Shown piece by piece: positions 1,922 through 32,894 of a stretch of DNA of 38,315 nt. The stretch's first letter is position 1; each line of letters begins with the position of its first letter. The stretch is from positions 1 through 38,315 of IMG/VR virus record IMGVR_UViG_3300032221_000163; one strand, given 5' to 3'. The translations under genes and the position numbers were made by a program. The notes under the pieces were generated by a model. That model did no database searches and was not told the origin of the DNA. It was given only the letters and a program-made list of their open reading frames with translations. This stretch comes from a virus (taxonomy: Duplodnaviria; Caudoviricetes).

Positions 1922-4866
1922 TGGCTGTCTATTTCGATCCCGCCAAGGGAGCGATCGTTGATCCAGAGCAGTCCTTAGCGGCGCAACAGCAGCAGATCCA
2001 GCCACCGCTGGGGTTGGATCCGATTGCGGAACGCAAGTGGCTGGCGGAGAACCAGGCGGTTGCACAGACCAAGCAGTTCGAGCAGGACGCTGCTGAGGGA
2101 CGGAACAAACCGTTCCTGGCTGAGAACCCGGGTCAGTTCTTCGATGACCTGGGGAACATCCTGGGTGACACGGCAACCGGCTTGGTCACTGACTACCTGG
2201 ACATTGGCGCAGGTCTGGCTGACGTTGCGGTTCAAGGCGCCAGTGCTCTGTCAGGTAATGGCTGGGACTGGAATCAGGTCTTTGACGACAGCGACAACCC
2301 CTGGACACAGTGGCGGCAGGGTGAGTTCGGCACCAATACCGAGGCCGGTGCTGCAGTAGCGAACGTCAGCCGGATGGTCTCGATGGTGCTCACCCTGCCA
2401 AAGGTGGGCATCAAGGGTCTGGCCCTGGCACCGAAAGCACTGAGCAAGTTGCCCGTTGCTGGCAAGGCAGCAGGTGGTGTTGCCAAGGCGCTGGATGGAC
2501 TGGATGCGACGCTGAAAACCAGCCGGGCACCCAAGGTCACCGAGGCCATGGGCGACCTGGCCAAGGGGTTCGCCAAGGGTTCGGGTGGTCAGAACGCGGC
2601 CAAGATTGCGGCTTCTGATGATTGGCTTCGCTACACCTTCCGGGAACTTTCCCAGGCCCCTGAAGCCAAAGACTGGTTCACCGGGGTGCGCCGCACGGTC
2701 AAGGGCCTAGGCAAGGACCTGGGCAACTTGGACGCCATGACGGTTGGCAAGGCACTGGGTTGGGATGCCTTTGCTGCCTTCAACGTCTACGGCGAAGGTG
2801 ACTGGGAGATGGACGAGACGCTGAGCGACATGCTCGGCATTGGTCCTTTTCAGACAGGTATTGAGGATTCGCCGCTGCAACGCAAGGCGAAGCAGATGGC
2901 AGAAGGCTTGATCGCCGGGGGGTTGATCAATGCTGCGCTCGACATCTCCCGGGTGTTCCGTTACAGCCAGGCCTTTGCCAAGGCAGCACCGGCTGAGCGT
3001 GGAGCGATTCTGAAAGCGTTTGACGCGGAAGCTGAGGAGCTGGGTCGCGGCATTGCTGGGCTCTTGCCTGAATCGGCTGCTTCTTTGCAGCCAGCGAGAA
3101 CGGCAGCGCTGGAGAAAGGTGCTCGACTCAACAGCCTTTACTCCCAGGTTGAAACCCAGCGAATTGGGAACCGCTACCAGAACGATCTACTGACAGCGCA
3201 GCTACGCAATCAGGCAGTGGCGAATGTCGGCTATGACCCACAGCTGCAGGCGCAGCTGACCCAAGGCCAGGGCGGGTTGAATCCTCAGCAGTTGATGGCC
3301 AACCAGCAGATGGTGGCTGGCAGCACTGAACTGCTTCCTGGTACGCAACCTGCTGGCCTCCTTCCCGAGGGCCAGGTGCAGCAGCTCCCTGGTGCTCCAC
3401 AACCGGGGATGCTGCCTGGTGGCCCTGAAGCCAAGCCTGGTTCCATGCCAGCTGGCACCCTCGGTGCTGGCGGTGAGCTTGTCCCTGTCACGCCGGACAT
3501 GCAGCCGGTGCAGGTGATGGACCTGGGGCCGCGGCCACCGGAACCTACGGTCACGCCCCAGACCATTCGTAATGCGTTCAAGGCTGATGCCTATGACGCA
3601 TTCATGCGCTCCCAGCAGCTGACCTTTGAGGAGGGTCCTGACGGCGTGATGCGCAGCATCGATGAACTGCGTGGCACGGTGAAACAGCTGCTGCCCCAGA
3701 CGCGGGTGGATGCGATTGAGTACATGACCAAGTTCACGCCACAGGCGAATCAACTTGGCGTGATCAATGCCAGCGATTCGGTGTGGATGAACTTCATCAC
3801 CGATCGTGGTCTGCGTGAAGGTTGGGCATCGATTGATCCCGACACCATGCAGGTGCGGTTCAACCGCAAGACCGCACTGGACATCGACCGTGGTGACCTG
3901 GCTGCCAAGCAGGCGGAAGCGTTCGATGAGCTGGCTGAGCTGAACCGTTATGAGGAGTGGCTCTGGAATAAGGAGCTGGTCAACGGCAGCCCCCAGATGC
4001 GTCCTGAGGTGCAGGACAACCTGGCAGGGAAAGAAGCTCGTGATGCCTATGACAACTGGGAAGCGGAGCAGGCCGCGGCCCAGGCCATGGATCCAGCCCG
4101 CGCTGACATCGAGCGCAAAGCTGCCACCGCTGCGGTTGAAGAGCAGCAGCTGAATGCAGCAGAGGAGATCCGCCTGAGTGAGGCCGAGATCGCCAAGGCC
4201 ACCGGTGCATTGGATGACCAGACCGTTGTGCGGGAATACCTGGGCACAACGCTTGACAGCATTCAACGTCCAGAGGTGGGCAAGGCTGAAGTTGGCCGCG
4301 GCTGGGAGGTGTATGACGCCAACGGTGAAATCCTTGGCACCACATCCACCAAGAAGGCAGCAGACAAGTTGGCGGATGCCGAGCTTGTCCGGCTGCGCGA
4401 TGCAACCATCGCCCGGGCACGGCAGATGGAAACTGACGCCACAGACCAGACGCTCAACATTGCCGTGGGTGATCCAATCCTGGATTCAGAAGTGGTGGGC
4501 CGGGTCACCCTGACGGACCGGCAGATCGAATCGGTGCAGAAGTTCAGTGAGTCCATCCAGCGTCAGATGAATGCGGACTGGGAGAAGCGCACCGGTGGCA
4601 AGGCCTGGATCAACATCAACGACCTGGGCAAGGGCAAGAAGACCTTTGACCTGACCCAAGGTGAGATGTATGACCTGGTTGATGGCATCAAGGCATTGCT
4701 GCAGACCGGTGAGATCCCGAGTCAGCGGGCCAAGGTGTTGCGCAATGTGGCCGACAAGTTAGACACCAGCATGAAACTGCTGGCACCACAGGCAAGGGCA
4801 CAACGCTTTGCCAATGACATTGCCGCTGATGCACAGCGGTTCCTTGAACACGGAGACTTCTGCTGA
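1921..4866 (+). CDS. Large internal virion protein (N-terminal part of a gp16-like ejection protein)
   Basis: ATG at 1921 overlaps the upstream TGA (TGATG). About 981 aa, Ala/Gly/Gln-rich with a Pro/Gln linker, located between the gp15-like gene and the tail fibre. Confidence 0.6.
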   Translation: MAVYFDPAKGAIVDPEQSLAAQQQQIQPPLGLDPIAERKWLAENQAVAQTKQFEQDAAEGRNKPFLAENPGQFFDDLGNILGDTATGLVTDYLDIGAGLADVAVQGASALSGNGWDWNQVFDDSDNPWTQWRQGEFGTNTEAGAAVANVSRMVSMVLTLPKVGIKGLALAPKALSKLPVAGKAAGGVAKALDGLDATLKTSRAPKVTEAMGDLAKGFAKGSGGQNAAKIAASDDWLRYTFRELSQAPEAKDWFTGVRRTVKGLGKDLGNLDAMTVGKALGWDAFAAFNVYGEGDWEMDETLSDMLGIGPFQTGIEDSPLQRKAKQMAEGLIAGGLINAALDISRVFRYSQAFAKAAPAERGAILKAFDAEAEELGRGIAGLLPESAASLQPARTAALEKGARLNSLYSQVETQRIGNRYQNDLLTAQLRNQAVANVGYDPQLQAQLTQGQGGLNPQQLMANQQMVAGSTELLPGTQPAGLLPEGQVQQLPGAPQPGMLPGGPEAKPGSMPAGTLGAGGELVPVTPDMQPVQVMDLGPRPPEPTVTPQTIRNAFKADAYDAFMRSQQLTFEEGPDGVMRSIDELRGTVKQLLPQTRVDAIEYMTKFTPQANQLGVINASDSVWMNFITDRGLREGWASIDPDTMQVRFNRKTALDIDRGDLAAKQAEAFDELAELNRYEEWLWNKELVNGSPQMRPEVQDNLAGKEARDAYDNWEAEQAAAQAMDPARADIERKAATAAVEEQQLNAAEEIRLSEAEIAKATGALDDQTVVREYLGTTLDSIQRPEVGKAEVGRGWEVYDANGEILGTTSTKKAADKLADAELVRLRDATIARARQMETDATDQTLNIAVGDPILDSEVVGRVTLTDRQIESVQKFSESIQRQMNADWEKRTGGKAWININDLGKGKKTFDLTQGEMYDLVDGIKALLQTGEIPSQRAKVLRNVADKLDTSMKLLAPQARAQRFANDIAADAQRFLEHGDFC
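4253..4267 (+). promoter_or_regulatory. 15-bp motif TTGACAGCATTCAAC (candidate phage promoter or operator)
   Basis: Exact match to the reverse complement of 28828-28842; oriented with the local genes. Confidence 0.5.
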
Positions 4867-12869: not shown

Positions 12870-13195
12870 ATCACCGTTCGGGTCTGGTGCTGCGGATCTG
12901 ATTCATCCAACCCATGGGCTTGTGGATCCCAGCTACCTTCCACTGGAACTCCGCTAACGAGGGCCTCACGGGGCCCTTTTTTGTTGGCATCCATGTCAGC
13001 CAAGCTGGCCAGCCAGGACTCCAGGCTTTCCCGCATCGGAATGGACTTAGGAATCTTGAGGAAGCGGCGCAGCTCAGTAATGTCCCGGATGAAGACGCTG
13101 GCACCACCGCTGTAGGCGATGAAGTATCGCCCGTTCCAATCCCTGCTGGTCTCGATGGATTGGTGTTGGCTGAGCCGGATGGCATCACGCTTCAT
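12866..13195 (-). CDS. Hypothetical protein
   Basis: 109 aa; start overlaps the lipase end; stop overlaps the convergent plus-strand stop. Confidence 0.55.
   Translation of the reverse strand: MKRDAIRLSQHQSIETSRDWNGRYFIAYSGGASVFIRDITELRRFLKIPKSIPMRESLESWLASLADMDANKKGPREALVSGVPVEGSWDPQAHGLDESDPQHQTRTVI
12960..12982 (+). terminator. Intrinsic terminator for the plus-strand tail operon, inside an antisense CDS
   Basis: AGGGCCT-CACG-GGGCCCT followed by a T run, about 90 nt after the last plus-strand stop. Confidence 0.7.
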
Positions 13196-13766
13196 GGATC
13201 AACCTCCGGTACACACCCATGTCATGGTCCCGGATACCTCGCAATGCGTGCAGTGGACTGGATGGTTCCAGCTGGATAACGGGTGCAGTGTGTCTGAACC
13301 CAGCAATCCAGAGCGGCATCTCCGGCACGATGTCACTGGCGTGGCGGTAGCGGTGGTGTGGCACCCGCAGCCGCTGCCGTAGCTTCCGCCCACCAGGGCG
13401 TGGTGAGCCAAAGGTGACCAGCTCCAGCTGGGGGATTTCGTTCTGCAGCTGTGCCGCCATGATCGTGGCTACAGCACCACCCAAGCTGTGACCACACAAC
13501 ACGATGGTGTGGTTGAGGTCCAGCTCCACCCGTTGCGCCCACATCTCAGCCATCAGCTGCCTGGCATAGGACCCGAAGCCCAGGTGTTCATCGCTGCTGG
13601 TCAGGATGAACTCAAAGTTCCTGCGCCAGTCCGCCAGTTCATCGCTGCCTTCAATGGCGATCCAGGTGGTGGTGTCTTCGGTATGCACCAACCAGTCATC
13701 TGGGTTGATGTACACCGCACGGCATAGGTCAGCAGCAACGCTGAGCTGGTAGTGACTCAGGGCCAT
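13185..13766 (-). CDS. Class 3 lipase (alpha/beta hydrolase)
   Basis: GHSLGG nucleophile elbow, IAIEGS oxyanion region, TFGSPRPG, DIVP, C-terminal DH. Likely start MALSHYQ at 13766. Confidence 0.85.
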   Translation of the reverse strand: MALSHYQLSVAADLCRAVYINPDDWLVHTEDTTTWIAIEGSDELADWRRNFEFILTSSDEHLGFGSYARQLMAEMWAQRVELDLNHTIVLCGHSLGGAVATIMAAQLQNEIPQLELVTFGSPRPGGRKLRQRLRVPHHRYRHASDIVPEMPLWIAGFRHTAPVIQLEPSSPLHALRGIRDHDMGVYRRLIHEA

Positions 13767-13927
13767 CGCCAGTCTCCGCAATTCATGGCAGCGCAGGTGG
13801 CTTCTATTCCCTGTTGCTGCAGCCAACGCTGCATTGCTTCAACGCTATGGAAGCCATGGCATTTGCTCACCTGTTCCACCGGAGTAGAGACAGGTGGTGG
13901 TGGTGGCAGGCAGACGGTGATCAGCAT
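13757..13927 (-). CDS. Hypothetical 56-aa protein, not in the ORF track
   Basis: Manual translation MLITVCLPPPPPVSTPVEQVSKCHGF...GDWRWP; ATG overlaps the upstream TGA and the ORF fills the gap before the lipase. Confidence 0.5.
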   Translation of the reverse strand: MLITVCLPPPPPVSTPVEQVSKCHGFHSVEAMQRWLQQQGIEATCAAMNCGDWRWP

Positions 13928-14199: not shown

Positions 14200-14601
14200 C
14201 TAGGCAATGGTTGCCAGCGATGCCACTGGTGGCGTCACAGCAGCAGGTGCATCCTCGTCTGGTTCCAGCACGATGCAGTTCTCCTCCACAATCACGCGGA
14301 CGTAGCTGCCGGGCTTCATGCCGCACTGGTCGGTGTAGGCACGGCTCACCGGCACCAGACCCTTGGGGCCAACCTTGAGGCGGTAGGTGGCTTCCTTCCC
14401 GCCCTCGGTGCGCTCATTCAACACAGGGCCAAGCTCATGTCCATTGGCTGCAGCCAGGGCCTCAAAGAACTTGGTGCGCTGCAGGCTGAGACGACCGTTG
14501 CGGCGGATGACATAGCCAGCGCCTTCGATCACTTTGTCTCGATCGTCACCTTGATGAGCATCCAGGTAACGCAGCAGGTCTTGGCCCTTCAGTGCAGCCA
14601 T
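14200..14601 (-). CDS. Cyanobacterial AbrB-like transcriptional regulator
   Basis: LKGQDLL...AGYV......RL....FFEAL..A.G N-domain, then YRLKV...G.V.V...YT...GMKPG..V.V swapped-hairpin domain. Confidence 0.8.
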   Translation of the reverse strand: MAALKGQDLLRYLDAHQGDDRDKVIEGAGYVIRRNGRLSLQRTKFFEALAAANGHELGPVLNERTEGGKEATYRLKVGPKGLVPVSRAYTDQCGMKPGSYVRVIVEENCIVLEPDEDAPAAVTPPVASLATIA

Positions 14602-24374: not shown

Positions 24375-25165
24375 AGCTTCACCTCATGTGTGTCGAAGTT
24401 GTACTCCCCTGCCCGGAGAACCCTTACCAGTCGGGCCTGTTGCGTGGCGAACTGGGATGGCTGGTCCACTTTCCCTTTCGTTTCATACGCCCGAACAATC
24501 GCTTCCCAGCAACCCACAGGGTCTGCGATGTCGAATCCATCGACGAGCTTCTTGGCTCCGACTGGACCCATCCCCTTGCAACCGGGGATGCCATCGGTCG
24601 CGTCACCCGTAAGGATCTGTTGGTATGTGAAACGCTCTGCATGTTCATCCGTATTCCGTTTGATGATCGTGTCACCGCTTCGTTCAACCACAAGTCCATC
24701 TTCTGGTTCAACCTCCTTCCCTGTATCTAGCCACAAGTGTAGCCCAGGTATCTGCATCAAGTCTTTGTCGCCTGATGCAATCACCACCTCATCGCCAACG
24801 GACATCGTGGCGAAGATCCCCATCAGATCATCGGCCTCAATCTTGCTGAACATGAACGCCGTGTCCTCGGTCAGCAGTTCAGCCCGCAGGTGCTTGTAGC
24901 CAATCGGCTTGGGTGATTTCCGGTTGGCCTTATACGCAGGGAACAGGTCCCGCCTGAATGCACTGCGATCGGTGAAGCAGTGCCACACGTCATCCATGCC
25001 GCACTCCATCAGGTGACACCAGTTGCGCACCTGCTGCCAGTACATCTCCCTGGCTGCACCCGCTTCGCTGTGCCGGGTCCACACATCAGGCCCCAGCTCC
25101 ACCTCCACCTCGGTTGCTGCCATTGCACGGAACAGCAGCATGTCCGCATCGAGCAGGATCCTCAT
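24353..25165 (-). CDS. 5'-3' exonuclease (T7 gp6-like)
   Basis: Start MRILLDADMLL at 25165 (ATGA overlap); FR..L.P.YKANR, EADD.MGI, S.DKDL.QIPG, L.GD.TDGIPG..G.GP. Confidence 0.93.
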   Translation of the reverse strand: MRILLDADMLLFRAMAATEVEVELGPDVWTRHSEAGAAREMYWQQVRNWCHLMECGMDDVWHCFTDRSAFRRDLFPAYKANRKSPKPIGYKHLRAELLTEDTAFMFSKIEADDLMGIFATMSVGDEVVIASGDKDLMQIPGLHLWLDTGKEVEPEDGLVVERSGDTIIKRNTDEHAERFTYQQILTGDATDGIPGCKGMGPVGAKKLVDGFDIADPVGCWEAIVRAYETKGKVDQPSQFATQQARLVRVLRAGEYNFDTHEVKLWNPPTN

Positions 25166-25440
25166 GCCGCCTCCTTCTTGATCTTGACTGGCAGCGGTTC
25201 CGTCATCTGACCCTTGAACAGGGTCGGCAACACCTTGGTCACCCTGGGGATTGTGGCCTTGCCCTTCTTCCCGTTGACCCACTTCACCTCCACCATCTCC
25301 TCGTGGTGCTGTCTGGTGTAGAACCTGTGGCCGCAATACTCACAGTGCCTGCGGCGCACAACGTTCTCGCACTCATCATCGAACTTGGTCAGGATCACCT
25401 TGGTGATCCATGCCCCACAGCCAGGGCAGTCAGGCGTCAT
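25162..25440 (-). CDS. NrdR-N-like zinc-ribbon protein
   Basis: CPGCG...T.V..T......VVRRRHCEYCGHRFYT; no ATP-cone follows. Confidence 0.75.
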   Translation of the reverse strand: MTPDCPGCGAWITKVILTKFDDECENVVRRRHCEYCGHRFYTRQHHEEMVEVKWVNGKKGKATIPRVTKVLPTLFKGQMTEPLPVKIKKEAA

Positions 25441-25639
25441 CTGATTCAGCGGCATCAGCCAGTTCCTCGGTTGCAAGTTGATCAATGAAATCCCAGATGG
25501 GGTCATGCATGTCGACACCCATCTCCATGAACCACTGAGCCATGTCGCCCAGTGCGTAGAAGGCTTCAGACCTTCCATCCCCGACCGACCCCACGTAGAC
25601 CGGGGCCATCTCCTCTCGGTGAAAACACTGCAGCTTCAC
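25430..25639 (-). CDS. Hypothetical acidic protein (start uncertain)
   Basis: Tiles between neighbouring ORFs; GTG at 25639 or a downstream ATG. Confidence 0.45.
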   Translation of the reverse strand: MKLQCFHREEMAPVYVGSVGDGRSEAFYALGDMAQWFMEMGVDMHDPIWDFIDQLATEELADAAESDDA

Positions 25640-28814: not shown

Positions 28815-28843
28815 ATGATACGACGTTGTTGAATGCTGTCAAC
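28815..28843 (-). promoter_or_regulatory. Sigma70-like promoter (TTGACA-N16-TATCAT) overlapped by the GTTGA-N6-TCAAC motif, upstream of ssb
   Basis: -35 at 28837-28842 and -10 at 28815-28820; the motif overlaps the RNAP stop codon. Confidence 0.6.
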
Positions 28844-31226
28844 TAAAGAGGAACGGGTTTTCGCCCACCTTGCTCCGGTCCAACGACCCCACAATCGGTG
28901 GTGCTGGCACCTCCCTCCCGAGCACCATCTCAACCATGCCCTGATGCCTGGTCAGGTGATCCACGGAATAGAACCGATGCCACTGATCGTTCAGCTCTGA
29001 CTGCAGCGTTCCAACGTGCTGCAACGTGGTGCCGAAGCAGTCATGAACCGTTGCAATCGGGTGGTCATACGTTGCCCAATGCGCAACGAACCGCATCAGG
29101 AATGCAGCATCCATGCTGTGCACGTAGTCAGGCACAAGCTTCCGACTGGTGCGCCGCTTGTTGACCGGGCAACCCGTGGCATCCCGCACACCCACTGAGA
29201 TGGTGCGCCTGCCGAGGGTCAACTCGATCTGATCCTGCCTGCTATCGGACTGATAACACTCAACCGCCAGGCCATTGGGTGTGAACCAGTACGCCCGATG
29301 ACCGGCATCGATCTGCATGTTGCTCAACTGGGTGAGCCAACGGGACAGATCACGCACATTGGGCAATGCTTCATTCACCACCTTGGTTGTGATTGTGGCC
29401 AGCACCAGGGCCAGGTCCACAATGCGCAGTCCTTCCTCGGTGAGGAAGTCTTCCACCTCATCCCGCAGGTACAGCTTGATGGTCTCAGCCAGGGATAGGT
29501 AGCTGCGGCCATAAATGATCGGCATCAGCACCTTCTTCCACAGCGAGCGGGGAATCTGATGCCTGCACCACCACGCCACGGTTTTGGTGCGGCGTTCATC
29601 CATCTCCTCGTGGTCACGGATCCACTTCAACCGTGCAACAACCAGCTTCCCGAGGCCGGTGTACAGGTCAGCGGAAGCACGGCCCGTGACGTTGGTGTAC
29701 TGCGCTAGCTGGGCATCACCGGTTAGGCAGGCAACGTGGCCCCAGCCCGAGCAGGTCTGATCCAACCAGTGGATGGTGCCGCTCTGGTATCCAGGGTTCT
29801 CGATGTAGCTGGCCCAGTCACGGCACAGCTGGATGAACCGCCACGGTTCCTTCACGTCAGCCCAGTAGGCGAGGCTGCCGAGGGGATCGTTGCCTGCCTT
29901 GACGATGGCTGCGCTCATCGTGTCCAGGTACCGCTCCCGTTCCTTGGGATCAGGGCTCAACCCGAGTGCACCGCCGAGGCTCCAGGCAAACTCCCGTTCA
30001 TGCCCCTTGATCGGGCTGCGTTCATCGAACTGCAGCAGCGAGCGTTGGTGATCGGGACCCTGGATGTTGAGCTGTGATCCACGGCTGTACACCCGGCCAC
30101 GGTGATCCATGTGGTGGACAAACCAGAGGGGCCGGGCATCACCGAGGCGGCGGTGTGCAACCAGGGTGTTCACGATCCGGCTGCGTTCACCGTCTCGGCG
30201 CTGGTCTGACTTCCACTTCCACACCGCCTTCCAGTAGGCCGAAGGGCCCAGGCCCTGCACCTTGTACTCGTTGTCCACCGGTTCAGGGACACGGTGCCTG
30301 GCGGGAACGCTGCCCACCTGGTGGCCCAGGTTCCAACAGGCTTCCAACAGTCCCATCTGGATCTCATCGATCTGATAGGGCTGCTCCTGCAGCAGGTTGA
30401 TGCTGTCCAGCACGCAGGGCAGCATCCGCTTGCTCACCTCCGGCCAACGTGCCCAGTCCACCGGGCTGACCTGAGTGGCGATGCTCAGGTACCCACCACC
30501 GGTGTGCCCAGTCCAGTCCCTGGGCGGCACCATCATCGGCATGTAGAGGGGCCGGAACATGGTCACGGCATCCTTCCACCGGTCCAGGAACTGCCAGTAC
30601 AGGGGTGTGTAGCGAACCCAGCGGTGCCGCTTGCGGTTCACCGTCTTCATCACCACCTCGATCATCTTGGTGCTCTCGGCAATGCACTCGATGAAGAACG
30701 CACCGAGGGCAGCACGCTCAACGTGCTTGAGGGGGTGGTAGGCCGCGGCCTTGCGGAAGCCCTGATCGATGAGGCGCTTGCGCACCAGGCCCATGTTCAG
30801 GTCATTGTTGGTGGCCAGCTTGAGGCCCTGTAGGTGCATTGATCTGCCCCACTGGGGGTGCTGTAGCCAGAGCACGTATTCAGCCCGCTTGCCGATGGTT
30901 GTGGCGAGCTGGGTGAAGGGGCGTTCCTCGTTGAGGTTGCCGATTACATAGGCCAGGGTTTCAAGGGCAACATGAATGACACTTTTCTTGTCACTCATCA
31001 ATGCCCAGATGTGTTGTTGCCGGCCTGGTGTGCGGTGAGATTTGTCATAGATCTCCAGCACTTTCTCCAGGTAAAGAGTGGCTAACCGCTGGGTCAATGT
31101 GCCGCTGGCACCCTTCTCCCACTTGGTGGAAAGAATGCGGTCTGCACCTGTACTTCTGCACCAGGATTCAAGCTCCAGCTGTTGGTGCAGGGGCTCCTTG
31201 ACGGCGTTCAACTGTTGATCGTGCAT
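28839..31226 (-). CDS. T7-like single-subunit DNA-directed RNA polymerase
   Basis: PM.VPP.DW, DHRGRVY, motif A DQTCSG..H, motif B R...KK..M...YG, PDYVHSMDA, motif C VHDCFGT, C-terminal FLFS. Confidence 0.96.
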   Translation of the reverse strand: MHDQQLNAVKEPLHQQLELESWCRSTGADRILSTKWEKGASGTLTQRLATLYLEKVLEIYDKSHRTPGRQQHIWALMSDKKSVIHVALETLAYVIGNLNEERPFTQLATTIGKRAEYVLWLQHPQWGRSMHLQGLKLATNNDLNMGLVRKRLIDQGFRKAAAYHPLKHVERAALGAFFIECIAESTKMIEVVMKTVNRKRHRWVRYTPLYWQFLDRWKDAVTMFRPLYMPMMVPPRDWTGHTGGGYLSIATQVSPVDWARWPEVSKRMLPCVLDSINLLQEQPYQIDEIQMGLLEACWNLGHQVGSVPARHRVPEPVDNEYKVQGLGPSAYWKAVWKWKSDQRRDGERSRIVNTLVAHRRLGDARPLWFVHHMDHRGRVYSRGSQLNIQGPDHQRSLLQFDERSPIKGHEREFAWSLGGALGLSPDPKERERYLDTMSAAIVKAGNDPLGSLAYWADVKEPWRFIQLCRDWASYIENPGYQSGTIHWLDQTCSGWGHVACLTGDAQLAQYTNVTGRASADLYTGLGKLVVARLKWIRDHEEMDERRTKTVAWWCRHQIPRSLWKKVLMPIIYGRSYLSLAETIKLYLRDEVEDFLTEEGLRIVDLALVLATITTKVVNEALPNVRDLSRWLTQLSNMQIDAGHRAYWFTPNGLAVECYQSDSRQDQIELTLGRRTISVGVRDATGCPVNKRRTSRKLVPDYVHSMDAAFLMRFVAHWATYDHPIATVHDCFGTTLQHVGTLQSELNDQWHRFYSVDHLTRHQGMVEMVLGREVPAPPIVGSLDRSKVGENPFLFS

Positions 31227-31289
31227 TCTCAGAGATCTCAGTGGAAATCCCTGATGGGGCCTGGTATTTGCGTTCTGTCAATCTTGCCT

Positions 31290-31331
31290 CGGATTATGAG
31301 TCCGCTGCATTCGCCAGATTGCTAGACCCCC
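31290..31331 (-). other. attP core: 5' 42 nt of a tRNA with CAT anticodon (Met or Ile2)
   Basis: Minus strand GGGGGTC TA GCAA TCTGGCGA ATGC A GCGGA CTCATAA TCCG gives acceptor 5' strand, D arm and anticodon arm; no T arm or 3' acceptor strand follows; about 60 bp downstream of the integrase. Confidence 0.85.
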
Positions 31332-31394
31332 TCAGGGTTTTGTTGGTGCACCCTGGTGCATTGTGCACCATACGTCTCAAACATGAGACAGCGT

Positions 31395-32402
31395 TCAACA
31401 GTGTGCCAGGGATGCCAAGTTGATACCAGCAGCGTGGATGTACCGCTGCGTCACTGATAACGACTTGTGGCCAGCCCATGCCTGGATGGCGGGGGCGGCG
31501 TGGCCGTTGGCAGCCAGCTCCGTGATCCGGGTGTGGCGCAGGGTATGGATGACCCATTCCTTGCGAACCGTGGGGCCGAGGCCCAGCCGATCGCAGGCCT
31601 CATGTTTGGCGTCGCTGTAGTGCAACAGGAACGTGCCGTAGTGGATCGGGAACACCGTCTCCAGGCCCCGTGCCTGCATGGTTTTGACCACACCAAGGGC
31701 AGGCTTGGTGAGGGGCAGCCTGCGGGGCATGGCGCCCTTGGTTTTGACGAACTGAACCTCGCCCTTGGCCAGGTCAATCCGATCCCATGTCAGGTCCAGG
31801 GCTTCGCCAACACGGCAACCCATTTCACGCAGGAAAATGGTGAGGCCCAGCGAAAGCCGGTTCTCCTTGCGCTCCAGGGCATCCAACAGGGCAGCCATCC
31901 ATTCATCACGGATCACCAAATCACGGGGTTCTGGTGATTTGAGGGTGCGCTTCTCAGGCATCAACGGCATGGCGTCGATGTGCCCAAGGCGGCAGGCCCG
32001 CTTCAACATCACGCTGGCGGCGCTGATGTATTTCTTGATGGTGGTGTTGCTGAGGCCACTGGCCCGCAGGTCCTCCACCAGGTCATCCAGCCGCCGCATG
32101 GTCAGCTCGCTGACGTGAGTGCGAGGCCCCATCAGCTTGGCCAGGCGTGCTGCATTCTCCAGCTGGCTGGAATCCTTGCCGGCCCAGTCAGCACTGGCGC
32201 AGACCCGCACCATGTCGCCCAGGGTGCCCTCGTGGTGGCGCTGTTGGCGCACCTCCATGACAGGGCTGGGATCCCTGGGGTTGGCCCCGGCCTCCCATTC
32301 CGCGGCCTCCCGTTCGGTGAGAAAGTCCCTGCTGATGCGCTTGCCATCACGCTGAAACTGGACTCTCCACCTGTTCCGATCTGGACAGAATCGAACTGCC
32401 AT
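31395..32402 (-). CDS. int: Tyrosine recombinase / phage integrase
   Basis: Catalytic set GCRVGE (R), KTK (K), HTLRHT (HxxR), AGH, TQRY (Y); N-terminal arm-binding-like beta domain. Confidence 0.95.
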   Translation of the reverse strand: MAVRFCPDRNRWRVQFQRDGKRISRDFLTEREAAEWEAGANPRDPSPVMEVRQQRHHEGTLGDMVRVCASADWAGKDSSQLENAARLAKLMGPRTHVSELTMRRLDDLVEDLRASGLSNTTIKKYISAASVMLKRACRLGHIDAMPLMPEKRTLKSPEPRDLVIRDEWMAALLDALERKENRLSLGLTIFLREMGCRVGEALDLTWDRIDLAKGEVQFVKTKGAMPRRLPLTKPALGVVKTMQARGLETVFPIHYGTFLLHYSDAKHEACDRLGLGPTVRKEWVIHTLRHTRITELAANGHAAPAIQAWAGHKSLSVTQRYIHAAGINLASLAHC

Positions 32403-32730
32403 AAATCATTGCCCCTAAAAGTGATACAAACTCTTGTCCTTTTTTGGTGAGGTAAACCTGCAAAATCCGATCGTCATCTGGGTTCCTGCGGGTCTCAACC
32501 CAGCCCATCCGGGCGGAGCTGATCTTGTCTCGCCTCCCGGAACTGCCCAAAACATCCATCGCCCGTGAGACGGCGGAGAGGGTCAAATCGCAGGCCATTG
32601 CCAATTCGGTCTGGGTTTGACCAGGTTTGAGGGCAACGGTCAACAGCAGATGCAACTGGCTGATGCGCAGCTGGGAATGCTGATGGAGACAGAAGAGAAG
32701 CCCCGAGTGGAGCTTGGATAGTTCAGACAT
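32347..32730 (-). CDS. MarR-like winged-helix regulator (candidate repressor)
   Basis: PGQTQTELA....LT.SAVSR..D.L, GWVE...NPDDDR...VYLT.KG; directly upstream of and overlapping int. Confidence 0.85.
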   Translation of the reverse strand: MSELSKLHSGLLFCLHQHSQLRISQLHLLLTVALKPGQTQTELAMACDLTLSAVSRAMDVLGSSGRRDKISSARMGWVETRRNPDDDRILQVYLTKKGQEFVSLLGAMIYGSSILSRSEQVESPVSA

Positions 32731-32894
32731 TGCAAGGTTCACTCACCACTGCAAAGCTAATCCCAAGTCAACAGTTTCGGTTGAATCATTGACAGGGTTT
32801 AAGTGCCTGATTCGCCTCATTCTGCTGCACGGTGCTTCACAGTTTGATTGGCGAGAAATCAACGATGATGCACACACTGAATAGCAACGTCCAC

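What the first reader, a model, noticed from the sequence alone, without database searches (positions are those of the whole stretch)
31198..31399. attP carries the 5' half of a tRNA(CAT), so integration would rewire both the tRNA and the phage RNAP
Seen: the order int, 42-nt tRNA 5' half, RNAP, all on one strand, with phage genes on both sides (unintegrated form). It is flanked by two copies of the 15-bp motif and an 8-bp inverted repeat TGGTGCAC...GTGCACCA (31344-31370). Known: most tRNA-targeting phages carry the 3' part, leaving the tRNA under its own promoter. Inference: crossover gives host promoter, half tRNA, RNAP at one end, and int followed by the restored tRNA at the other. RNAP is cut off from the early promoter but faces a host tRNA promoter, and a possibly single-copy essential tRNA (Ile2 or Met) depends on prophage-side transcription. 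This would be an integration-driven switch; the motif at 31198 could block RNAP expression.
Basis: partly seen in the sequence, partly recalled or inferred. Interest (0 to 1): 0.8.

Follow-up and report, generated by a model that had tools for sequence, protein, structure and literature searches.

The report
Cyanophage attachment site copying half tRNA
This virus of small freshwater-type cyanobacteria carries, between its integrase and RNA polymerase genes, a near-exact copy of the first 42 bases of a host tRNA gene that likely serves as its integration site, a layout already published for related viruses, here aimed at a different tRNA (likely the isoleucine one that reads AUA).

Summary
Observation confirmed. 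On the minus strand the order is MarR-type regulator, tyrosine integrase (32402-31395), a 42-nt tRNA 5' half (31331-31290) and T7-like RNA polymerase (31226-28839). The 42-mer matches 41/42 bases of a picocyanobacterial tRNA(CAT), one of three CAT tRNAs per host genome and likely Ile2. The layout is published: T7-like cyanophage attPs copy the first half of tRNA-Leu (PMC8776855). Pelagiphage junctions already show host gene + half tRNA + RNAP at attL and int + restored tRNA at attR (bioRxiv 10.1101/410191). This scan also reached that verdict on another genome (e1-8235422). New here: the target tRNA, and a family of 34 phage att contexts (25 CAT, 9 Leu-TAA) sharing one 16-bp anticodon arm that differs only at the anticodon. 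The target changes three times on an RNAP tree. No junction or prophage was found. The 15-bp motif recurs far from attP and covers the -35 box of a conserved sigma-70 promoter after RNAP, so it is likely a MarR operator. The predicted rewiring follows from the geometry, but a switch function is untested; related cyanophages integrate without stable lysogeny. New member of a known kind; interest 0.3.

The parts
32347..32742 (-). MarR-type winged-helix regulator, overlapping the integrase start; likely repressor
   Evidence: Pfam MarR/MarR_2 above cut-off; phrog_9665
32789..32803 (.). Motif copy upstream of the MarR-type gene (likely autoregulatory operator)
   Evidence: 2 mismatches; a copy lies at the same place in L123-L127
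31395..32402 (-). Tyrosine integrase, 335 aa, with R, K, HxxR, H, Y motifs recognisable by eye
   Evidence: the assignment of catalytic residues rests on recalled family motifs
31385..31399 (.). 15-bp motif copy over the integrase stop codon
   Evidence: conserved in the clade alignment
31374..31379 (-). TGAGA-type site on the left arm; likely integrase arm site
   Evidence: conserved column block; inferred function
31344..31370 (.).
   Evidence: the sequence changes in relatives while the repeat structure is kept
31290..31331 (-). 5' 42 nt of host tRNA(CAT), likely Ile2: the attP common core
   Evidence: 41/42 identity; host genes
31294..31300 (-). Anticodon loop (CAT); likely 7-bp strand-exchange region, flanked by the CGGA/TCCG dyad
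   Evidence: only the anticodon differs between CAT- and Leu-targeting relatives; crossover not observed
31268..31281 (.). Third dyad copy (TTG-N8-CAA) directly after the core, between the half tRNA and RNAP
   Evidence: conserved
31227..31241 (-). Two direct CTGAGA repeats ending at the RNAP start codon; likely integrase arm sites
   Evidence: near-invariant; a similar word lies beside a related integrase at a tRNA-Thr 3' end in L335; inferred function
31198..31212 (.). 15-bp motif copy inside RNAP codons 5-10; likely operator
   Evidence: exact match to the strict motif
28839..31226 (-). T7-like single-subunit RNA polymerase, 795 aa
   Evidence: best phage record Krakvirus S39C11, 42.5% identity
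28815..28842 (-). Sigma-70-like promoter (TTGACA-16-TATCAT) for the replication genes, its -35 box inside a 15-bp motif copy
   Evidence: 11/12 consensus; motif at this place in 14 of 16 genomes examined, TATCAT in 12 of those 14

Best explanation
The region is very likely the attP of an integrase-bearing T7-like phage of picocyanobacteria, whose integrase would recombine the anticodon loop of the phage's 42-nt copy with that of a host tRNA(CAT) gene, likely tRNA-Ile2. Shown: gene order, the 41/42 match, the match ending at or next to tRNA position 42, and the same layout in 34 related att contexts. Inferred: the integrase binds the CGGA/TCCG anticodon-stem dyad as core sites and TGAGA words as arm sites, and exchanges strands across the 7-nt loop. 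Inferred products: attL = host promoter, half tRNA, RNAP; attR = int, then a whole tRNA rebuilt from the phage 5' half and the host 3' half. Inferred: the rebuilt tRNA would be made by read-through from the marR-int operon, and the MarR-type protein bound at the 15-bp dyads would be what holds RNAP and the replication promoter down. By analogy with S-TIP37 and P-SSP7, integration is likely rare and transient rather than a stable lysogenic switch.
For: Host tRNA match in picocyanobacterial genomes. Same layout in 64 loci, 34 distinct contexts. CAT and Leu(TAA) halves share the 16-bp anticodon arm except the anticodon, and so does host tRNA-Leu(TAA) in 4 of 5 genomes. All 34 phage halves have the GCGGA stem, which only 25 of 120 host loci have; that fits a sequence requirement of the integrase, though shared ancestry contributes. 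Phage-only changes mostly keep the tRNA fold: a paired A12-T23 to T12-A23 swap in 9 of 25 CAT contexts (one clade, so one event), absent from 68 of 68 host matches, and D-loop changes. Published: attP downstream of int matching the first half of tRNA-Leu, needed for integration (PMC8776855); pelagiphage attL/attR reads with this topology (bioRxiv 10.1101/410191). Motif: 4 strict copies against 0 in 100 random sequences of the same dinucleotide make-up (pattern derived from the window), three of them 2 to 27 kb from attP. No terminator-like site between int and RNAP on the coding strand and no sigma-70 match upstream of the half tRNA. marR and int are co-transcribed, with read-through, in LUZ100.
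Against: No junction seen: 0 hits for an attR pattern in metagenome and viral contigs. None of 53 loci from the attP/attL pattern had a host gene upstream, none of 120 host loci had int upstream or RNAP downstream, and there was no junction contig in 4 runs (contigs only, a weak test). Close relatives L128 and S39C11 keep int and RNAP but have no tRNA half. Two halves (L187, L181) break the TCCG dyad, and one (L278) changes acceptor-stem position 6. The isotype is not settled: the other non-initiator CAT tRNA has its best E. coli matches in genes annotated tRNA-Ile, and phage homologues of the target are annotated Met, Ile or pseudo. Operator function of the motif is untested.
Confidence: 0.85

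Rival explanations
1. One reading: the recombination itself is the lysis-lysogeny control. It removes RNAP from the early promoter and makes an essential tRNA depend on the prophage, which would stabilise a lysogen.
For: The geometry follows from the sequence. The target is single-copy in 5 of 5 genomes. The phage has no tRNA of its own. Two dyad copies lie between the core and RNAP codon 10. The fold-keeping D-stem swap suggests that the rebuilt tRNA is used.
Against: No prophage or junction found. Integration would place RNAP behind a host tRNA promoter, which does not by itself silence it. The replication genes keep an 11/12 sigma-70 promoter. Stable lysogens were not obtained for S-TIP37 or P-SSP7.
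Confidence: 0.15
2. The 15-bp motif is the phage RNAP promoter rather than a repressor operator; the two copies at attP would then fire antisense to int and RNAP late in infection.
For: Copies at 28842(-), 21015(-), 14626(-) and 4253(+) all read in the local direction of transcription, at places where T7-like phages have their own promoters (typical positions recalled).
Against: The motif is a dyad (TTGA-N6-TCAA). At 28842 it holds a -35 box with a conserved -10 box 16-17 nt away, despite a variable spacer. No conserved initiation region follows the copies.
Confidence: 0.2
3. The target tRNA is the elongator tRNA-Met rather than tRNA-Ile2.
For: ARAGORN labels it Met by anticodon. The other non-initiator CAT tRNA best matches E. 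coli genes annotated tRNA-Ile at 78-81%.
Against: Of 5 CAT tRNA loci scanned, only one of the two copies of this type matched an Rfam plastid model whose reverse strand is a CAU tRNA (E 0.028; that it is plastid trnI-CAU is recalled). The other type starts G-G-C-U, the recalled MetRS acceptor-stem signature, in 4 of 5 genomes. One phage homologue is annotated tRNA-Ile.
Confidence: 0.25
4. The half tRNA is an inert relic of a past excision and is no longer used for integration.
For: No junction found; the window's copy has a private change at position 19; some relatives lack the half.
Against: Kept at 41-42/42 across integrases of 56-98% identity, with a fixed 3' end and conserved arms; the integrase frame is intact.
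Confidence: 0.07

Closest known systems
attP of integrase-bearing T7-like cyanophages P-SSP7 and S-TIP37 (PMC1079782; PMC8776855)
   Same: 39-42 bp match to a host tRNA directly downstream of int; matches the first half of the tRNA; picocyanobacterial host.
   Different: The published sites all match tRNA-Leu. This one matches tRNA(CAT), with one mismatch. The RNAP is only about 26-27% identical to the best cultured cyanophage RNAPs. Integration there was shown by PCR; here it is inferred.
HTVC019P-type pelagiphage attP (bioRxiv 10.1101/410191)
   Same: attP between int and RNAP; host tRNA restored by a phage-derived 5' part, sometimes with base changes; attL = host gene, 5' tRNA end, RNAP start; attR = int, whole tRNA; MarR gene in the genome maps.
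   Different: SAR11 host; targets Cys, Leu and Arg; several carry a whole replacement tRNA, which this window lacks.
MarR-int-RNAP cassette of temperate Autographiviridae (LUZ100, PMC10134795, citing Boeckman 2022)
   Same: MarR-type gene, int and RNAP in one row; MarR hypothesised to repress RNAP through sites near its promoter.
   Different: No attP was described for LUZ100 in the passages read. Here candidate operators also lie 2-27 kb from attP, and one covers a sigma-70 -35 box.
Tycheposons of Prochlorococcus (bioRxiv 10.1101/2020.12.28.424599)
   Same: Integrate at tRNAs with roughly 40-nt att sites; one of the three Met(CAT)-labelled tRNAs is among their 7 targets.
   Different: Not phages; which CAT tRNA and which half was not given in the passages read.
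tRNA-dependent lysogeny in actinobacteriophages (PMC10865867)
   Same: An essential single-copy host tRNA comes to depend on phage DNA after integration; tRNA-Ile2-CAT is named among the cases.
   Different: There the core is about 10 bp, the tRNA is not rebuilt, and a whole phage tRNA gene replaces it. Here the 42-bp core would rebuild it.

Membership tests
T7-like cyanophage attP (P-SSP7 / S-TIP37 type) | T7-like phage with single-subunit RNAP and T7-type head and tail genes | tested here: met
   (no family-A DNA polymerase found in the 92%-complete record)
T7-like cyanophage attP (P-SSP7 / S-TIP37 type) | Tyrosine integrase directly upstream of the site | tested here: met
   63 nt between the stop codon and the tRNA start
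T7-like cyanophage attP (P-SSP7 / S-TIP37 type) | 39-44 bp near-perfect match to the first half of a picocyanobacterial tRNA | tested here: met
   41/42; hosts
T7-like cyanophage attP (P-SSP7 / S-TIP37 type) | Target is tRNA-Leu (true of all four published motif groups; an observed property rather than a mechanistic criterion) | tested here: not met
   Anticodon CAT here; sister phages do carry Leu(TAA) halves. It is therefore not one of the four published motif groups, only the same kind of site.
T7-like cyanophage attP (P-SSP7 / S-TIP37 type) | Int- and attP-dependent attL/attR junctions | tested here: inconclusive
   none found; published frequencies are 0-1.6% of sites, so assemblies would rarely hold them
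MarR-int-RNAP cassette of temperate Autographiviridae | MarR-type gene upstream of int, upstream of RNAP, on one strand | tested here: met
MarR-int-RNAP cassette of temperate Autographiviridae | MarR binds sites that control RNAP expression | not testable with these tools
   candidate dyads only
MarR-int-RNAP cassette of temperate Autographiviridae | Stable prophages in host genomes | tested here: inconclusive
   24 of 401 genomes hold a T7-like RNAP (24-30% identity); the 4 with a tRNA half upstream are in int-half-RNAP (unintegrated) form
tRNA-dependent lysogeny | Core of about 10 bp that does not rebuild the tRNA | tested here: not met
   42-bp core covering tRNA positions 1-42
tRNA-dependent lysogeny | [quoted passage not shown] | tested here: not met
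   0 tRNA genes in the window; the record is 92% complete
tRNA-Ile2(CAU) | CAT anticodon, and neither the initiator nor the elongator Met of the genome | tested here: inconclusive
   not the initiator; Ile2 versus Met favoured and blurred
tRNA-Ile2(CAU) | Lysidine at C34, charged with Ile | not testable with these tools
   needs tRNA modification or charging data

The most novel reading that the evidence does not exclude
The 5'-half geometry is what makes these phages integrate without lysogenising. Integration hands the cell's only AUA-reading tRNA to read-through from the marR-int operon, across a MarR operator at the int stop, while the host tRNA promoter fires into the phage RNAP, so the integrated state cannot be both silent and viable for long. 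The same integrase family re-aims between tRNA-Ile2(CAT) and tRNA-Leu(TAA) by swapping a half whose 16-bp core differs only at the anticodon, and can use the CAT tRNA only in the roughly one in five hosts with the GCGGA stem.
Probability: 0.2. Interest if true: 0.6.

Novelty: new member of a known kind. Interest (0 to 1): 0.3.

Why it matters
The layout itself is known. The additions are modest but usable: a host prediction (picocyanobacteria with the GCGGA-stem tRNA(CAT), 67 of 401 genomes searched), a second integration target for T7-like cyanophages, natural pairs of near-sister phages aimed at two tRNAs that show how an integrase changes target, and candidate MarR operators. If the novel reading held, it would give a mechanism for the open puzzle of why T7-like cyanophages integrate but form no stable lysogens.

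Tried and rejected
Rfam and ARAGORN on the window found no tRNA: the half is too short, and the Rfam matches there are below cut-off. L071 looked like an attL (host promoter + truncated tRNA), but it has the native host genes on both sides, so it is a local loss or an assembly error. L106 and L121 are cut by the locus end. G399, with two copies, holds two whole host-type genes with different flanks. MAG contigs with int-half-RNAP (L181, L182, L184, L186) are unintegrated phage-form contigs, not prophage ends. The 3 of 401 genomes with a related integrase (33-35%): one is such a phage-form contig (L337); two lie near tRNA-Thr(GGT) genes, and for L335 the integrase faces the tRNA 3' end; my print-out for L336 was mis-indexed and not interpreted. 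The attR pattern gave 0 in two collections. Laying four runs gave only contigs that share the 42-mer. A pattern for more Leu halves of the second clade gave 0. The full/half test was faulty; it was redone, and only the flank assignments are used. The 15-bp motif as integrase arm site was rejected because strict copies lie 2-27 kb away. The left-arm repeats as a terminator were rejected because no T-run follows on either strand and one search lists none there. Isotype by similarity to E. coli was uninformative or contrary; the plasmid search gave no annotation. Boeckman 2022 and Williams 2002 were not held.
Full report
What is there. The window is a 38,315-base virus record, estimated 92% complete. 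It carries T7-type RNAP, ssDNA-binding, primase/helicase, exonuclease, portal, capsid and tail genes. Its best phage record is Krakvirus S39C11 (RNAP 42.5%, same gene order around int and RNAP). On the minus strand lie a MarR-type regulator (32742-32347), a 335-aa tyrosine integrase (32402-31395), 168 nt of spacer, and RNAP (31226-28839). In the spacer, 31331-31290 matches positions 1-42 of a 73-nt tRNA(CAT) at 41/42, and the match stops four bases into the 3' strand of the anticodon stem.

Host and isotype. The 80 listed titles are nearly all Cyanobium, Synechococcus, Prochlorococcus and kin; a few MAG titles name other genera. Of the 120, 25 have the GCGGA anticodon stem of the phage, 91 GCGAA and 4 CCGAA. 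In a family-wide sample, 67 of 401 genomes have the GCGGA form. All 68 host matches there have T at position 19; the window and L123 have C. Each of 5 genomes examined has three CAT tRNAs: an initiator type, a second type, and one copy of this one. Ile2 is favoured at about 75%. One of two copies of this type, and none of the three loci of the other types, matched the reverse strand of an Rfam plastid model (E 0.028), which I recall as overlapping plastid trnI-CAU. The second type begins with the recalled MetRS acceptor signature in 4 of 5 genomes. Against this, the second type's best E. coli matches are annotated tRNA-Ile, and annotations of phage homologues disagree. The best DNA holders are mostly freshwater metagenomes.

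The family. A viral scan for the tRNA 5' half gave 80 loci: 22 lie between int and RNAP (21 of them classed as halves, the 22nd shown), and 58 are whole tRNA genes. A pattern for stem-loop plus right arm, with any anticodon, gave 23 viral loci (20 int-half-RNAP: 12 CAT, 8 TAA; 3 unrelated) and 30 metagenome loci (14 phage att sites: 9 CAT, 5 TAA; 16 unrelated). With relatives this makes 64 loci and 34 distinct att contexts, 25 CAT and 9 Leu(TAA). All 34 carry the GCGGA stem, and CAT and Leu halves differ within the 16-bp anticodon arm only at the anticodon (one stem position also varies in a few). Host tRNA-Leu(TAA) has that arm in 4 of 5 genomes. On an RNAP tree of 32 of the 34 contexts the target label needs 3 changes (quick method, with a long-branch warning). 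On an integrase tree of 27 of 34, which lost 4 of the 9 TAA rows to my ORF filter and may hold mis-read rows in the distant clade, it needs 1, with the TAA group nested among CAT rows. Exceptions: L187 and L181 break the TCCG end; L128 and S39C11 have no tRNA half.

Mechanism. A dyad around a 7-nt loop is the usual core of lambda-type integrases (recalled; Williams 2002 was not available). The fixed 3' end, the invariant stem and the exchangeable anticodon point to strand exchange in the loop. This is inferred and was not observed. It would give attL = host promoter, half tRNA, RNAP and attR = int, rebuilt tRNA, host genes. Phage-only changes mostly spare the tRNA fold: a paired D-stem swap in 9 of 25 CAT contexts (one clade), absent from 68 of 68 host matches, and D-loop changes. 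That suggests the rebuilt tRNA is used. No sigma-70 match lies upstream of the half, and no terminator-like site lies between int and RNAP on the coding strand, so read-through from marR-int is the likely source. LUZ100 co-transcribes these two genes and reads through. TGAGA words on both arms are likely arm sites, and the three co-varying repeats on the left arm are likely accessory sites or an RNA hairpin.

The 15-bp motif. Strict copies lie at 4253, 21001, 28828 and 31198, with 0 in 100 random sequences of the same dinucleotide make-up. A looser dyad gives 12 copies against a mean of 3.3 and a maximum of 10. Both patterns were derived from the window. At 28842 the motif holds the -35 box of an 11/12 sigma-70 promoter, kept in 14 of 16 genomes examined. 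A copy also sits upstream of the MarR-type gene in the window and in L123-L127. An operator for the MarR-type protein is the likeliest reading; a phage RNAP promoter is the rival. Either way the replication genes have a host-type promoter that integration would not disconnect, which weakens recombination as the sole switch.

Search for integration. No junction was found. The attR pattern gave 0 in metagenome and viral contigs. None of 53 arm-pattern loci had a host gene upstream, and none of 120 host loci had int upstream or RNAP downstream. Of 401 genomes, 24 hold a distant T7-like RNAP and 3 a related integrase; those with a tRNA half are unintegrated phage-form contigs. Four runs, held as contigs, showed no junction. 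These are weak negatives, given published integration frequencies of 0-1.6%.

Comparison with print. PMC8776855 (passages; Conclusions section; figures and supplements not seen): attP downstream of int, four 39-bp motifs all matching the first half of tRNA-Leu, int and attP both needed for integration, no stable lysogens. PMC1079782 (passages): 42-bp match for P-SSP7. bioRxiv 10.1101/410191 (passages; supplements not seen): attP between int and RNAP, tRNAs restored by a phage 5' part with base changes, and environmental attL and attR reads with the topology predicted here. PMC10134795 (passages): the marR-int-RNAP cassette and the MarR repression hypothesis, credited to Boeckman 2022, which I could not read. 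bioRxiv 10.1101/2020.12.28.424599 (passages): tycheposons use one of the three CAT tRNAs. PMC10865867 (passages): 3'-half cores are typical in mycobacteriophages; tRNA-dependent lysogeny is a different arrangement. I did not see a CAT-targeting T7-like cyanophage attP, the CAT/Leu switching, or a discussion of the promoter swap in the listings of searches or in the passages read. That library lacks most subscription papers, and unseen supplements may hold such cases. An earlier finding of this scan on another genome (e1-8235422) reached the same verdict for a tRNA-Leu(CAA) half; it is an unchecked AI note and was seen after my reading was fixed.

Verdict. The feature is real and very likely a working attP (0.85). 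It is a new member of a known kind, with a new target tRNA and visible target switching in its family. The rewiring at both junctions is a sound geometric inference with precedent; a switch function is untested. Interest 0.3.

Noticed in passing
L123 (L001:2963-2979) versus window 31354-31370: The 3-nt loop between the two inner repeat copies reads CAA in the window and TTG in a 98%-identical relative: an exact inversion of the hairpin.
   Followed up: partly
L127, L268, L281, L284, L289, just upstream of the Leu half: The Leu-targeting sister group has about 36 extra bases on the left arm, with a TAGGAT hexamer 8-9 nt before the tRNA start. It resembles the host tRNA-Leu upstream box (2 of 4 hosts TAGGAT, 2 TAGACT) and also the start of the ancestral CAT half. 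These phages may bring their own -10 box for the rebuilt tRNA.
   Followed up: partly
window, whole record: No family-A DNA polymerase was found, and none is annotated in the complete S39C11 record. The structural genes are split into two convergent blocks in both.
   Followed up: partly
window 4253, 14626, 21001, 11996, 6408: Further copies of the 15-bp dyad lie in or between the structural gene blocks, suggesting genome-wide control by one regulator.
   Followed up: partly
L128:1054-1795: Four regularly spaced motif copies in the early region of a relative that has no tRNA half.
   Followed up: no
L160-L162, L165, L167, L168, L170, L171, L173: Distant T7-like RNAP genes (23-29% identity) deep inside large picocyanobacterial contigs, with no tRNA half seen in the 260 bases upstream; some seem to follow an integrase-like gene end.
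   Followed up: no
58 of 80 viral loci: Whole copies of this same tRNA(CAT) are common in other cyanophage contigs, mostly with a CCGAA stem (44 of 58) that is rare in hosts (4 of 120).
   Followed up: no
window 13185-13826, 14200-14601, 25162-25578: A class-3 lipase-like gene, an AbrB-like regulator and a NrdR-like zinc-ribbon protein.
   Followed up: no
L071:2960-3040: A host copy of the tRNA has lost its T-arm and 3' acceptor strand while keeping native neighbours; deletion or assembly error.
   Followed up: partly
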